This document shows, one piece after another, positions 43,005-46,048 of a stretch of DNA of 46,048 nt. Under the pieces are notes generated by a model. The model was given only the letters and a program-made list of their open reading frames with translations. It was not told the origin of the DNA and searched no databases. The position numbers were made by a program, and so were the translations under genes. The number at the start of each line of letters is the position of its first letter. Position 1 is the first letter of the stretch. Origin of the DNA: Ignavibacteriales bacterium (GTDB lineage Bacteria > Bacteroidota > Ignavibacteria > UBA10030); the NCBI GenBank assembly GCA_031406095.1, contig JANOGR010000225.1, positions 1-46,048 of the forward strand. The letters run 5' to 3'.

Positions 43005-45773
43005 CTAATGATGTACGGCCACCTTCTGCTCTTTGAAAGCATCTTCAAACGAAATCCAAACCGATTTGGCCGTTGCATCAAAACGCCAGCCAGTACCTTT
43101 GCCATCGGATGTACGTGGAACTAACTTGCCGTTCATGGTGATGGAGGAGGGCTGCTTCTGAGCATCGTTCACCTTCAGCAAGAGCGTTCTCTTCGACGGC
43201 CTGTAGTTTCCTTGTGGGCTTGAAAGGACAATCTCGGTTGATTTATCCGAGCTTTTGAGGAAGACGGTACGCTGCGAGTATTCTCCCTGTGCATAGCCCA
43301 GGCTTTTCCCATCATCCTCATAAACAACACTCGTTGCTTCAATCGCTGGATAGATCTCGAACGTCAACGGCTCTGTTGTTGTCTGGTCTGAATACTGCAA
43401 GCCCTGCTGCGTGGCAATTATGGCTCCTCCTTTTGCAAAAAGAGGAATGCGGTCAATCGGAGCATCCGCTGTGATCCATTTAGGACCAACGAGTTTTTCT
43501 CCCGTCCAGTAGTTGTACCACTCGCCTTTAGGCAGGTAAACTCCTTTTGTCGTTTTTCCGGGTTCAAGCACGGGAGCCACAAGCAGGGCATCGCCAAACA
43601 TGAACTGCCTGTCTGTCCAGTAAGCCGTTTCATCATCGGGAAAATCGAAAAACATCGGCCGCATAATGGGAATCCCAGTAGTGGAAGCGAGATAAAACTG
43701 CGTGTACACGTAGGGGAGGAGTTTATACCGCAGCTCGATGGATTTCTTGTTGATCGCCTCGAATTTCGGTCCGTACGACCACGGCTCCTGGTCTGCACTG
43801 CCGATTTCTGTGTGCGTCCGCATCAAAGGCATAAAGGCGCCAAGCTGCAGCCACCTCGCATACAGCTCCCCGCTCGGGCTCCCCACAAACCCTCCGATAT
43901 CCGTGCCAACAAACGGCTGACCCGAGATGCTCAGGTTCAAGCACATTGGCACAGCCATTTCCAGATGCTCCCAGCTGCTGATATTGTCGCCCGTCCATGC
44001 CGAAGCGTACCTGTTTCCTCCGGCATAATTTGCCCGCGTCAACACGAAGGGGCGCTCGTTTGGCCGGAGTCTCGACACGCCTTCGAACGTCCCGCGCGCC
44101 ATTTGCATGCCATACACGTTGTGATTCTTGCGATGGTCGGTTTTCCGTCCCTCGTCGTCGTGCATCACGTTCAAATCGAACGTCTTCATCGGCACATCGA
44201 ACACAGCCGGCTCGTTCATGTCGTTCCAGAACCCTTTCACACCGTCATCCAGAAGTCCTTTGTAGAGCGTTCCCCACCAGTCGCGGGCTTCTGTTTTTGT
44301 GAAATCCGGAAACACGCAATCGCCTGGCCAGACTTTCCCCACGTAGTTCCGTCCATCGGGCCATTTTACGAAATGATCTCCCTTCACGCCTTCGTCGTAC
44401 ACCCAGTAGCCCGGCTCGTTCTTTATTCCAGGGTCGATGATCACCACGACTTTGAATCCATCTTTCGACAGGTCATCGATCATTTTCTTCGGATTCGGAA
44501 AGCGCGTCTTGTCCCACGTGAAGCACCGATACTCATCCATATAATGGATATCCAGATAAATGACGTCGCATGGGATTTGTTTCTTTCTAAACGTTTTGGC
44601 AATCTCGCGTACGCGGGATTCCGGATAGTAGCTGTAACGACACTGCTGGTAAGCGACAGCCCATTTGGGCGGCAGCGGCATTTTCCCCACAAGCTCCGAG
44701 AATTGCCTGAGCACCGCTTTGGGCTCGGGGCCATACATGAAATAATAGTTCAATTCCCCGTCAACAGCTCCAAACGAGTATTGTTCCTGGTGCTCCTTCC
44801 CCATGTTAAACGTCGAGTAGTACGTGTTGTCGAAAAAGATTCCGTAGGTCTTACCTTTGCGTGTGCCGTAGAAAAACGGAATCGTTTGGTACAGCGGATC
44901 TGTATCGGCTCTGTAAGCGGGTATATCCGTGTTCCACATGGACATCGTTTTCCATTTTCGGTTCAAAGATCCAGCCTTCTCGCCGAAGCCAAAGTACTGC
45001 TCGTCGAGGGGCATCGTTTTCCAAACACCGACTTGATTTCCCGACCATGCCATACCTTTTCCGGGTTCATCCTGGTTCACGAGGTTCCCTTGTGCATCAT
45101 AGAACGAGAGCCTGCATGGGTTTTTCGTCACACGTAGTGTGAGTTTTGAGGTTTTCAGCACAACCTCGCTGCTCCCGTCATCGACTGTGAAGGTTCGTGG
45201 TCCAAGATCGGCTTTTACAACCGCCCACGACCTGTCTTCAGCGAATTGGCCATCCTGATCCATTCGAACGCGTAACACCGATTGATCCAAAACTGTAATC
45301 CGGACTTTTGCAGGCGGTGCGGAAAGAATAATGCCATCACCTGTTTTCTCCACGGCTGACACATTGCCGATCGATGTCCATTGAGCAGAAACAGGAATCC
45401 AGACAAAAACACTGATAGCAAGAGTAAGGAAACACTGCATTAAATAGGGATTGTCATTCCGTCGGATTTTAAGACGCCAGCCCGCCTTCGGTCTGGCGGG
45501 GAATCCAGAACGGGTTTGATATGAGCGTCTAGCCCAAGTCGGCGCGAGTGACGATAGGATTCGGGTTCTGGACTCCCGCCTGCCTGTCCGGTAGGCAGGC
45601 TTACAATCCGCGGGAGTGACAAGTTTTTTCTTGTTTGTCATTCCCGTCAGCCTGCCGAACAGGCAGTCTAAAAATCCGCGGGCCCGACTAAGTCCGCCGT
45701 AAGCGGACGTCGTCGGGCGGGCATGACAAGGTGTTTTTTGGGTACTTTGCATCGCTTCATTGAAGGGTTTCAT
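43005..45773 (-). CDS. Glycoside hydrolase family 31 alpha-glucosidase; 5' end carries an in-frame repeat insertion (alternative start at 45440)
   Basis: YFGFGEK, DPLYQTIPF, IYLDIHYM, GFWNDMNEP (nucleophile), WTGDN (acid/base), DIGGF and QEPW motifs. The signal h/c-region is LTLAISVFVWIPVSA|Q. Confidence 0.93.
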   Translation of the reverse strand: MKPFNEAMQSTQKTPCHARPTTSAYGGLSRARGFLDCLFGRLTGMTNKKKLVTPADCKPAYRTGRRESRTRILSSLAPTWARRSYQTRSGFPARPKAGWRLKIRRNDNPYLMQCFLTLAISVFVWIPVSAQWTSIGNVSAVEKTGDGIILSAPPAKVRITVLDQSVLRVRMDQDGQFAEDRSWAVVKADLGPRTFTVDDGSSEVVLKTSKLTLRVTKNPCRLSFYDAQGNLVNQDEPGKGMAWSGNQVGVWKTMPLDEQYFGFGEKAGSLNRKWKTMSMWNTDIPAYRADTDPLYQTIPFFYGTRKGKTYGIFFDNTYYSTFNMGKEHQEQYSFGAVDGELNYYFMYGPEPKAVLRQFSELVGKMPLPPKWAVAYQQCRYSYYPESRVREIAKTFRKKQIPCDVIYLDIHYMDEYRCFTWDKTRFPNPKKMIDDLSKDGFKVVVIIDPGIKNEPGYWVYDEGVKGDHFVKWPDGRNYVGKVWPGDCVFPDFTKTEARDWWGTLYKGLLDDGVKGFWNDMNEPAVFDVPMKTFDLNVMHDDEGRKTDHRKNHNVYGMQMARGTFEGVSRLRPNERPFVLTRANYAGGNRYASAWTGDNISSWEHLEMAVPMCLNLSISGQPFVGTDIGGFVGSPSGELYARWLQLGAFMPLMRTHTEIGSADQEPWSYGPKFEAINKKSIELRYKLLPYVYTQFYLASTTGIPIMRPMFFDFPDDETAYWTDRQFMFGDALLVAPVLEPGKTTKGVYLPKGEWYNYWTGEKLVGPKWITADAPIDRIPLFAKGGAIIATQQGLQYSDQTTTEPLTFEIYPAIEATSVVYEDDGKSLGYAQGEYSQRTVFLKSSDKSTEIVLSSPQGNYRPSKRTLLLKVNDAQKQPSSITMNGKLVPRTSDGKGTGWRFDATAKSVWISFEDAFKEQKVAVHH
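45429..45761. mobile_element. 333-nt composite non-autonomous repeat element (three TGTCA-type hairpin units with nested micro-palindromes)
   Basis: Units at 45452-45508, 45568-45621 and 45636-45728 share an 8-bp or longer stem and a 9-nt GGATT(T/G)T(A/T)A loop once nested inserts are removed. Excising the element joins MKPF to LTLAISVFVWIPVSAQ. Confidence 0.7.
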
Positions 45774-45780
45774 AGAACTC

Positions 45781-46047
45781 TCAATTTGTAGTTGTTATTA
45801 CAGTATAACCAAAGGCAGGGAGCGTCAATCCGATCGTATTTCCGGCAACCTGGAACTCTCGTGAGGAAAAGAACTCTTTGAGTTTCACATTCTTACGGGG
45901 TGGCAGTATGATTTCCGCCTGAACCGGTTTTGCGGACAAATTCAAAACCACGATGACTGTATCGGAAGCGGTTTGTCTGACAAATGAATATAACTTTGGA
46001 CCACCCGTGTTGCTTAAAGAGGCATACGTTCCCCACCGCAAAGCCTC
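45781..46047 (-). CDS. C-terminal part of an alpha-amylase (GH13)-like protein, truncated by window edge
   Basis: EALRWG...LYSFVR....TVIVVLNLS...LTLPAFGYTVI resembles the GH13 C-terminal beta domain. It lies next to GH31. Confidence 0.7.
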   Translation of the reverse strand, partial: EALRWGTYASLSNTGGPKLYSFVRQTASDTVIVVLNLSAKPVQAEIILPPRKNVKLKEFFSSREFQVAGNTIGLTLPAFGYTVITTTN

Positions 46048-46048
46048 G

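What the first reader, a model, noticed from the sequence alone, without database searches (positions are those of the whole stretch)
45429..45773. 333-nt repeat element inserted in frame into the signal peptide of a GH31 gene
Seen: the ORF starts 7 nt after the upstream stop with ATG AAA CCC TTC, runs through 111 stop-free codons of palindromic repeat DNA, and resumes ...TTC CTT ACT CTT GCT. Deleting 45429-45761 (one TTC copy on each side) gives MKPFLTLAISVFVWIPVSA|QW, a textbook Sec signal peptide. The element's end also supplies an alternative ATG (45440, MQCFLTL...) that lacks the basic n-region. Known: Rickettsia palindromic elements insert in frame into proteins. Inference: a selfish repeat tolerated inside a coding region, either translated as a long basic N-extension removed with the signal peptide, or rescuing the gene with its own start codon.
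Basis: partly seen in the sequence, partly recalled or inferred. Interest (0 to 1): 0.8.

Follow-up and report, generated by a model that had tools for sequence, protein, structure and literature searches.

The report
Repeat array translated inside signal peptide
A roughly 310-base block of a selfish palindromic repeat sits in frame between the original start codon and the export signal of a sugar-cleaving enzyme gene in an uncultured sediment bacterium, and it shows that a cleavable leader can tolerate such an insertion.

Summary
The GH31 gene lies on the minus strand (43005-45773). Its ATG at 45773 comes 7 nt after the stop of a GH13 amylase gene. A stop-free run of 111 codons follows, then a second ATG (45440) and a 19-residue hydrophobic core ending VSA|QW.

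- **Repeat:** positions 45441-45741 belong to a dispersed palindromic family with about 102 sites in this 2.9-Mb Ignavibacteriaceae MAG.
- **Empty sites:** three relatives lack the repeat and start 25-residue leaders right after the amylase gene. One begins MKTPF, so the MKPF ATG is the ancestral start.
- **Assembly:** contigs from two studies tile the occupied allele.
- **Sister species:** it has the same repeat/gene junction but AGA where the window has ATG. Its frame stays open into the repeat, so it must start upstream.
- **Chance:** of 54 frames over the nine arrays of 250 nt or more, only this one is open.
- **Second case:** an independent one exists in this genome. A lipoprotein gene on contig C230 has its leader split in frame by 81 repeat-derived codons, and the site is empty in the sister.

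Best reading (about 0.6): the array is translated as a long basic N-extension that signal peptidase removes. Restart at 45440 (about 0.25) is not excluded. In-frame palindromic repeats are already known (RPE, ERIC), so interest is moderate.

The parts
45781..46048 (-). 3' end of the upstream GH13 alpha-amylase gene (stop TGA 45783-45781). The contig ends at 46048.
   Evidence: Pfam Malt_amylase_C 5e-12. The full-length ortholog in L071 has the Alpha-amylase domain 6e-39.
45771..45773 (-). Ancestral start codon ATG (MKPF), 7 nt after the amylase stop.
   Evidence: Empty-site relatives start 13 nt after the same stop. One begins MKTPF. The public annotation calls this 922-aa ORF.
45742..45770 (-). 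Non-repeat 5' coding remnant (codons 2-11, KPFNEAMQST). It contains an in-frame ATG at 45752 and an ATGCA pentamer that recurs at 45440-45436.
   Evidence: No family coverage. Sequence.
45635..45741 (.). Repeat module nearest the start codon. Inverted termini are at 45635-45646 and 45718-45729. The core hairpins are unique, and a T-rich tail follows on the + strand.
   Evidence: Inverted pairs I3 and I6. End motif and tail shared with other copies.
45451..45634 (.). Compound repeat module plus an A-rich linker (read NKKK in the gene frame). It is the part most similar to other copies (up to 87% identity over 124 nt).
   Evidence: Inverted pairs I1, I2 and I5.
45441..45450 (.). Junction tail after the terminal ...TGACAA (TCCCTATTTA on the gene strand). 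It is shared with the sister species' junction but is not conserved across the family.
45438..45440 (-). Internal in-frame ATG (MQCF). It is a possible alternative start, is specific to this genome, and reads AGA in the sister.
45384..45437 (-). Hydrophobic core and cleavage region of the signal peptide (QCFLTLAISVFVWIPVSA), with predicted cleavage before QW.
   Evidence: Highest hydropathy of the first 160 residues (KD13 2.5). A|QW or a close variant follows a short leader in 11 of 12 more distant orthologous loci; the twelfth is cut by its contig end.
43005..45383 (-). Mature GH31 alpha-glucosidase, including the stop codon.
   Evidence: Pfam domains. 90% identity to the sister ortholog over 808 aa.

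Best explanation
An array of a genome-wide palindromic, MITE/REP-like repeat was inserted into the 5' end of the GH31 gene. The array is about 300-312 nt and has two or three modules. It lies between the ancestral start codon with its first few codons and the hydrophobic core of the Sec signal peptide.

Only an insertion that keeps the frame and has no stop leaves the gene working. That is why this array is open although such arrays almost never are.

The ribosome starts at the old ATG (45773), which lies close behind the amylase gene of the same operon, or possibly at an in-frame ATG inside the array. It reads the reverse complement of the repeat as a basic peptide of about 110 residues with no hydrophobic stretch (net charge +19). 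This peptide stays on the cytoplasmic side. The unchanged hydrophobic core still engages the export machinery, and signal peptidase I cuts at VSA|QW. The mature enzyme is therefore unaltered and the repeat-derived leader is discarded.

**Shown:** the insertion, its frame, empty sites in relatives, the assembly, a second independent case, and the lack of a junction start codon in the sister species.

**Inferred:** which ATG is used, that the protein is exported, and that the leader is cleaved.
For: 1. Empty-site alleles keep a start codon 13 nt after the amylase stop and a 25-residue leader (L071). P0002 begins MKTPF, against MKPF here. An X8 contig joins 45401 to 45790 with 77 other letters. 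I count 76 at the same place in L071.
2. The same-genus genome G001 is 90% identical over 808 aa. It has the same repeat/gene junction but AGA instead of ATG. It has no in-frame ATG, GTG or TTG before the hydrophobic core, and its frame is open through all visible repeat DNA. An intact gene there needs a start further upstream.
3. The open frame is rare. It is 1 of 54 frames over the nine arrays of 250 nt or more, and that one is this frame. For arrays of 150-250 nt, 5 of 102 frames are open. In this frame, family copies carry a stop at codon 80 in 10 of 22 copies and at codon 84 in 5 of 22. The GH31 copy has TGG and TCA there.
4. There is a second independent case on C230:8076-8837. A GTG start lies 1 nt after the moaA stop. 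Then come 81 codons, mostly repeat, read in the same element frame, and then IWNVVLLLALIGC, a lipoprotein leader. The site is empty in the sister (L076). It is also empty in 6 of the 8 other members of the 90% cluster; the other two begin later.
5. The extension has K8 R16 D3 E2 and a maximum KD13 of 0.88, so it adds no second membrane segment.
6. In both genes the sense strand carries the A-rich side of the linkers, so no hairpin-plus-U-run terminator faces the gene.
7. Contigs of two studies tile the occupied allele exactly.
Against: - No expression or protein data exist, and no RNA run was listed.
- The window has an ATG (45440) exactly at the junction. C230 has a TTG there. Restart would therefore also give a hydrophobic leader, though one without a basic n-region.
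- The sister contig stops 57 nt into the repeat, so its upstream start and full open frame are unseen.
- The RNA over the array folds very stably (-148.6 kcal/mol, z -8.45). The ribosome would have to melt it.
- Shine-Dalgarno signals are weak genome-wide (AGGA before 19% of 128 unambiguous starts against 6% of 1313 internal ATGs). They cannot tell the starts apart.
- The frame used is the most stop-poor frame of the family, so an open frame is unlikely by chance but not wildly so. I estimate a few per cent per array.
- A leader of about 130 residues is far longer than usual, and SignalP could not be run.
Confidence: 0.6

Rival explanations
1. Restart. The insertion cut the gene off from its old start. 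Translation now begins at the junction ATG (45440), giving a 19-residue leader without a basic n-region. The 111 upstream codons are an untranslated, or uselessly translated, relic that has not yet acquired a stop.
For: - An ATG lies exactly at the junction. An analogous TTG lies at the C230 junction.
- The sequence before 45440 is AU-rich, and the genome uses little Shine-Dalgarno.
- The stable hairpin array could hinder read-through.
Against: - The sister species lacks any start at or after the junction, yet keeps an intact gene and hydrophobic core.
- Under this model the frames over both arrays need not be open. Both are, although the background is 1 of 54 and 5 of 102 frames, counts that include these two.
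- In my census of arrays of 60 nt or more abutting a long ORF, no signal peptide was split by an array with stops.
- The leader would lack the K/R n-region. I counted one in 10 of the 11 more distant orthologs with a visible N-terminus, reading from the leader-proximal start; L033's proximal start has none.
Confidence: 0.25
2. Dual use or start inside the array. Initiation occurs at an in-frame ATG supplied by a repeat terminus (codon 45, MTNKKK, about 45641) or at several ATGs. Only part of the array is then translated.
For: - The terminus motif GGAATGACAA contains an ATG that is in frame at codon 45. 21 of 23 aligned family copies have Met there.
- The sister needs some upstream start, which could be of this kind.
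Against: - Nothing marks this ATG as a start.
- Codons 1-44 are also open.
- The old start, with its operon-like spacing, is intact.
Confidence: 0.1
3. Artefact or coincidence. Either the array is a misassembly at a repeat, or the repeats are simply intergenic and MKPF is a chance ORF.
For: - The genome is a 393-contig MAG, and 13 of 102 repeat sites lie within 150 nt of a contig end.
- No single listed contig spans the whole stretch.
Against: - In X2 the contig pieces 45223-45518, 45490-45578 and 45574-46048 overlap and match with 0-1 differences. X1 gives the same picture.
- In empty-site relatives the gene starts right after the amylase stop, and one begins MKTPF. The spacer is coding, not intergenic.
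Confidence: 0.04

Closest known systems
Rickettsia palindromic elements (RPE) inserted in frame into protein genes
   Same: - A dispersed palindromic repeat of about 100-150 nt per unit.
- It is inserted in frame and stop-free into intact genes.
- Orthologs without the insert exist.
- It is read as an extra peptide (passages of the review PMC10969869).
   Different: - The phylum is unrelated (Ignavibacteriaceae), and sequence relationship to RPE families was not tested.
- The insert is an array of modules of 104-111 codons, not one unit.
- It lies in a cleavable leader, so the mature protein is unchanged. RPEs are described as altering the gene product itself.
- Only 2 in-frame cases were found among about 50 arrays of 90 nt or more. 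In Rickettsia nearly half of the elements are reported to be in ORFs.
Enterobacterial ERIC-like repeat units (RU-1/2/3) fused to ORFs; RU-2 in the predicted signal peptide of Y. pestis YPO1552
   Same: [quoted passage not shown]
   Different: - There the repeat supplies residues 1-30 of a 41-residue predicted leader, including hydrophobic residues.
- Here the old start and the old hydrophobic core both survive. The repeat is wedged between them as a hydrophilic spacer of about 100 residues.
- Empty-site alleles are documented here.
Long signal sequences with N-terminal extensions (e.g. of autotransporters)
   Same: A Sec leader whose hydrophobic core and cleavage site are preceded by an extra N-terminal stretch (abstract of PMC2805444).
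   Different: - Those extensions are conserved domains of a few dozen residues (my recollection).
- Here the extension is about 110 residues and is recent repeat DNA. It is absent from close relatives and presumably has no function of its own.
MITEs and REP/BIME arrays of bacteria
   Same: - Short terminal inverted repeats, strong hairpins, and dozens of copies that are mostly intergenic.
- Units are joined head to tail by short linkers.
- The family is restricted to a lineage (9 of 61 family genomes).
   Different: - No parent IS with the same termini was sought systematically.
- Target duplications are unclear (ATGCA here, ATCT on C230).
- Only 1 of 10 Y1-transposase loci has a copy nearby.

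Membership tests
In-frame intragenic palindromic repeat (RPE-like phenomenon) | The element is a member of a dispersed repeat family with palindromic structure. | tested here: met
   61 matches in the genome and 102 sites after iteration. Inverted termini and internal hairpins. Fold z -8.45.
In-frame intragenic palindromic repeat (RPE-like phenomenon) | It is inserted within a gene, keeps the frame and has no stop. | tested here: met
   111 open codons between the ancestral ATG and the leader core. This is the only open frame of 54 over the nine arrays of 250 nt or more.
In-frame intragenic palindromic repeat (RPE-like phenomenon) | Orthologs lacking the insert show that the flanks are one gene. 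| tested here: met
   L071, P0002 and the X8 contig.
In-frame intragenic palindromic repeat (RPE-like phenomenon) | The repeat-encoded peptide is actually translated. | not testable with these tools
   No RNA holder was listed and there are no proteomic data. The only indirect support is the sister's lack of a junction start.
Rickettsia RPE families proper | Sequence similarity to an RPE family. | not tested
   No RPE sequences were at hand. The Rfam scan gave only a sub-threshold CRISPR-DR4 hit (20.7 bits against a cut-off of 35).
MITE | Terminal inverted repeats, small size and many copies. | tested here: met
MITE | Target-site duplication of fixed length. | tested here: inconclusive
   ATGCA flanks a 312-nt segment here and ATCT flanks the C230 array. 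The two differ in length and are short enough to be chance.
MITE | A parent IS or transposase with the same termini. | not tested
   Only Y1_Tnp was looked for.
REP/BIME with RAYT | Association of the repeats with a Y1 (RAYT) transposase gene. | tested here: inconclusive
   Y1_Tnp gave 11 matches at 10 loci. Only 1 locus has a family copy within 1.5 kb, and none has the terminus motif within 1 kb.
Sec (SPase I) signal peptide | A hydrophobic core followed by small residues at -3 and -1, at the position conserved in orthologs. | tested here: met
   The core ends VSA|QW with KD13 2.5. A short leader ends before QW, GW or DW in the 11 more distant orthologs whose N-terminus is visible.
Sec (SPase I) signal peptide | A short basic n-region directly after the initiator Met. 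| tested here: not met
   From ATG 45773 the n-region is about 111 residues. From ATG 45440 it has no K or R. No SignalP-type predictor was available.

The most novel reading that the evidence does not exclude
Cleavable export leaders are a recurrent safe harbour for this repeat family. The arrays are truly translated into basic leaders of 80-110 residues that still allow Sec export (GH31) and lipoprotein processing (C230). In the sister species the repeat-derived stretch has become indispensable coding sequence, because it carries the only route from a start codon to the signal peptide. Natural signal peptides of about 130 residues built from selfish DNA would then be functional. Repeat insertion would be a way for n-regions to grow and for new start codons to arise.
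Probability: 0.45. Interest if true: 0.6.

Novelty: new variant of a known kind. Interest (0 to 1): 0.5.

Why it matters
In-frame palindromic repeats have so far been discussed mainly for Rickettsia and a few enterobacterial and Coxiella genes.

- **New setting:** this is a previously undescribed repeat family in a free-living, uncultured Ignavibacteriaceae lineage, and it behaves the same way.
- **A simple rule of tolerance:** both in-frame cases lie between the start codon and the hydrophobic core of a cleavable leader. The mature protein is therefore untouched.
- **A natural experiment:** if the arrays are translated, they test how long and how charged an n-region can be before Sec or lipoprotein targeting fails.
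- **Annotation:** gene callers pick the long ORFs here, and signal-peptide predictors would probably miss them.
- **Population genetics:** occupied and empty alleles coexist in sediment populations.

It does not open a new class of mechanism.

Tried and rejected
- **Upstream half of the sister's locus:** G001 has no assembled amylase end or MKPF region. Its GH31 contig stops 57 nt into the repeat, preceded by 18 nt that I recognise from memory as a sequencing-adapter remnant.
- **Protein word searches:** searches with residues 1-140 of the 922-aa ORF and with the 111-residue extension against longer proteins returned nothing, not even the query's own record. They say nothing either way.
- **RNA evidence:** no RNA holder was listed. 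Expression stays untested.
- **Rfam:** nothing above threshold.
- **RAYT link:** not established.
- **Further in-frame cases:** none in 12 loci of G001. None in 25 arrays of 45 nt or more from 23 loci of four other genomes, G009, G054, G061 and G069.
- **Other open frames in G000:** they are a gyrB upstream region (C29), a lipoprotein 5' leader (C235) and an antisense-looking ORF (C154). I judged them by eye not to be insertions into genes.
- **Nucleotide alignment of the flanks to L071:** it could not fix the exact insertion boundaries, because the leader has diverged too far.
- **Shine-Dalgarno comparison of the candidate starts:** dropped because the genome uses the signal weakly.
- **Earlier findings of this scan:** none for this genome.
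- **Literature searches** (PMC Creative Commons papers plus bioRxiv only):
  - 'palindromic element' + 'in-frame' + 'signal peptide' + 'insertion': 4 papers, none on such a case judging by title and abstract.
  - 'Ignavibacteria' + repeat/palindromic/MITE: none of the 8 listed papers held 'Ignavibacteria'.
- **Supplements:** none were consulted.
Full report
**What is there.** The feature lies on the minus strand.
- A GH13-type amylase gene ends with TGA at 45783-45781 (Malt_amylase_C).
- Seven nt later, ATG 45773 opens a 922-codon ORF (43005-45773). Its body is a GH31 alpha-glucosidase (PF01055 2e-129 plus three flanking GH31 domains).
- Codons 1-111 read MKPFNEAMQST and then peptide encoded by repeat DNA.
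- Codon 112 is a second ATG (45440). The hydrophobic stretch QCFLTLAISVFVWIPVSA and then QW follow.

**The repeat.**
- Positions 45441-45741 match 61 other places in the window's own genome, G000 (2.89 Mb, 393 contigs).
- Three rounds of BLAST collected 102 sites totalling 11,220 nt. Thirteen of them lie within 150 nt of a contig end.
- Units are bounded by inverted termini, TTGTCATTCC(C)G and its complement. They contain GC-rich hairpins and are strung together by short linkers. The linkers are T-rich on one strand.
- The window's + strand has the T-rich orientation. The gene therefore reads the complement, with AAA/AAG Lys codons in the linkers.
- The 366-nt RNA over the region folds at -148.6 kcal/mol, z -8.45 against 100 shuffles.
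- Family similarity stops at about 45442 on one side and 45741 on the other. Positions 45742-45770 are not repeat.
- The bases after the terminal ...TGACAA differ between copies, so ATG 45440 is not an element feature.
- Rfam has no family for it. The only hit was a sub-threshold CRISPR-DR4 match.
- The family was found in 9 of 61 sampled genomes of the same family, in 5 of 33 genera, G000 included.
- The sister's record title names an uncultured Ignavibacteriaceae bacterium.

**Is the spacer really coding?** Three relatives have an empty site.
- **L071 (metagenome).** It has the same amylase gene upstream. Nucleotide identity is 90.7% and 87.2% in the two flanks. Its amylase stop is followed by 13 nt and ATG, with the leader MNTTLCNKIVLVSSAILFIWIPLAA before QWTSIGNV.
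- **P0002.** It belongs to the same 90% cluster (708 of 810 aligned positions identical, with one 29-residue gap). It starts MKTPFCKKVVLVSSAILFIWIPLAA.
- **An X8 contig.** A 1684-nt contig of run X8 joins window 45401 to 45790 with 77 other letters in place of 388. It has 6 differences in 302 nt on the GH31 side and 20 in 259 nt on the amylase side. By my count, L071 has 76 letters at that place.

So the ancestral gene began directly after the amylase gene with a 25-residue leader. MKPF matches MKTPF in position and sequence.

Eleven of 12 more distant orthologous loci (40-47% identity over the first 200 residues) also show a start codon 17-30 codons before QW, GW or DW. The twelfth is cut by its contig end.

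**Boundaries.**
- An excision between the ATGCA at 45752-45748 and the ATGCA at 45440-45436 (312 nt) leaves 26 codons. That is close to the relatives' 25.
- The leader has diverged too far for an alignment to decide.

**Assembly.**
- In run X2, contig pieces cover 45223-45518, 45490-45578 and 45574-46048 with 0-1 differences.
- In run X1, which comes from another study, pieces cover 45100-45475, 45490-45578, 45574-45621 and 45592-46048.
- Both junctions are bridged by pieces that reach well into unique sequence.
- One of these runs may be the source of the MAG. At least one is therefore independent.

**The sister species.**
- G001 is in the same genus and is 90% identical over 808 aa.
- It has the same junction (...GGAATGACAATCC, then T for C, then TATTTA). 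It reads AGA CAA TGT where the window reads ATG CAG TGT.
- The frame is open back to the contig end, and the visible repeat is read in the same register (KIRRNDNPYL).
- No in-frame ATG, GTG or TTG precedes the hydrophobic core. The next in-frame start would remove the leader.
- The gene is otherwise intact. Unless it has lost export, it must be translated from a start further upstream, through at least the last repeat module.
- The upstream part is not assembled in G001, which is 75% complete.
- The internal hairpin of its last module is of another subtype than the window's and resembles the C230 copy. The arrays have therefore been remodelled since the insertion, or the site was hit twice.

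**Is the open frame chance?**
- Over the 9 arrays of 250 nt or more, 1 of 54 frames is open, and it is this one.
- For arrays of 150-250 nt, 5 of 102 frames are open. For 90-150 nt, 28 of 144.
- Projecting the GH31 frame onto aligned family copies shows that it is the stop-poorest frame of the family.
- Even so, 10 of 22 copies have a stop at codon 80 (TGG here) and 5 of 22 at codon 84 (TCA here). There are 3 of 34 at codon 58 and 1 of 32 at codon 75.
- A chance open, in-register array is thus a matter of a few per cent.

**A second case.**
- The screen for open arrays found C230:8105-8317.
- There a GTG lies 1 nt after the TAA of a moaA gene (Radical_SAM plus Mob_synth_C).
- It opens VKRFFLSAI. 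Repeat-derived codons follow, in the same element register as in GH31 (KT-S/P-CHAR at one end, GGKIRR at the other). Then comes IWNVVLLLALIGC followed by EANQQ, a lipoprotein leader. In all, 81 residues precede IWNVV.
- The sister's ortholog (91% identity) has GTG AAA CGT TTT and a 15-residue leader, VKRFSIVLVVAILGC, with no repeat.
- Six of the 8 other members of the 90% cluster start the same way. The other two are called from later starts.
- More distant relatives also start at the equivalent GTG or ATG.
- A TTG sits at this junction too.
- The public annotation calls both long ORFs, 922 aa and 254 aa.
- My census covered arrays of 60 nt or more next to ORFs of 120 codons or more. Other arrays lie upstream of starts, for example 0, 36 and 72 nt before secreted-protein genes on C42, C271 and C235. 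I saw no leader split by an array that carries stops.

**Mechanism.**
- The extension is hydrophilic and basic (111 residues, K8 R16 D3 E2). Its highest 13-residue hydropathy is 0.88, against 2.5 for the core.
- Established knowledge of Sec targeting, recalled and not tested here, holds that recognition rests on the hydrophobic core. Positive charge ahead of the core is retained in the cytoplasm, and signal peptidase reads only the residues just before the cut.
- Long leaders with N-terminal extensions are known (abstract of PMC2805444).
- I therefore favour read-through from 45773, or from an in-array ATG such as codon 45, with removal of the whole leader at VSA|QW.
- Restart at 45440 is the main rival. 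It explains the window but not the sister, and it does not need the open frames.
- Shine-Dalgarno signals are weak in this genome, so they do not help.

**Comparison with what is known.**
- In-frame insertion of palindromic repeats is established for Rickettsia RPEs. It has also been noted for ERIC-like units, BOX and Coxiella MITEs (passages of PMC10969869).
- One ERIC-like unit was reported in silico to form the first 30 residues of a predicted 41-residue signal peptide (passages of PMC2759123).
- This case differs in several ways. The family and lineage are new, and the insert is a multi-module array of more than 100 codons. Both the old start and the old core are retained, and empty alleles are documented. 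The same genome holds two independent hits in leaders.
- I found no paper on such repeats in Ignavibacteria (listings only).

**Verdict.** The finding is real and well documented. It is a new variant of a known phenomenon, and the mechanism is plausible but untested.

Noticed in passing
G000 contig C230:8076-8837 (locus L075:1258-2019): A second in-frame repeat array splits the leader of a small lipoprotein gene downstream of moaA. 81 residues lie between the GTG start and the IWNVVLLLALIGC core. The site is empty in the sister genome and in most cluster members.
   Followed up: yes
L032:1-18 (G001 contig start): The first 18 nt look like a sequencing-adapter remnant (recognised from memory). 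Similar letters appear as loose ends in run X7. The contig breaks inside the repeat.
   Followed up: no
window 45100-45401 and 45790-46048, against a contig of run X8: The empty-site contig is about 98% identical on the GH31 side but about 92% on the amylase side. Identity also breaks at 45401, inside the leader core, not at the repeat edge. This suggests recombination or allele mosaicism around the leader.
   Followed up: partly
G000 contigs C42:1653-1797, C271:3128-3255, C235:288-385: Repeat arrays lie immediately upstream (0, 36 and 72 nt) of the likely start codons of other genes with secretory or lipoprotein leaders. Gene 5' ends seem to be a common landing place.
   Followed up: partly
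G000, 10 loci (e.g. C302:5537-5875, C307:108-449): There are eleven matches to the Y1 transposase family (IS200/IS605/RAYT type). Only the C302 locus has a repeat copy within 1.5 kb.
   Followed up: partly
P0002, against window GH31 residues 601-629 of the 811-aa form: The empty-site relative lacks 29 residues (from DDETAYWTDRQF to the run before TTKGVYLP) inside the GH31 body. This is either a real deletion or an assembly gap.
   Followed up: no
whole genome G000: Shine-Dalgarno-like motifs are weakly enriched before starts (AGGA 19% against 6% before internal ATGs), as in many Bacteroidota-group genomes.
   Followed up: partly
L105 (G069 contig C359:503-608): In another genus, a 106-nt repeat copy is open in frame between an upstream ORF and a gene beginning MKLDFRQRIKQGPILCDG. 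It is probably intergenic and open by chance.
   Followed up: no
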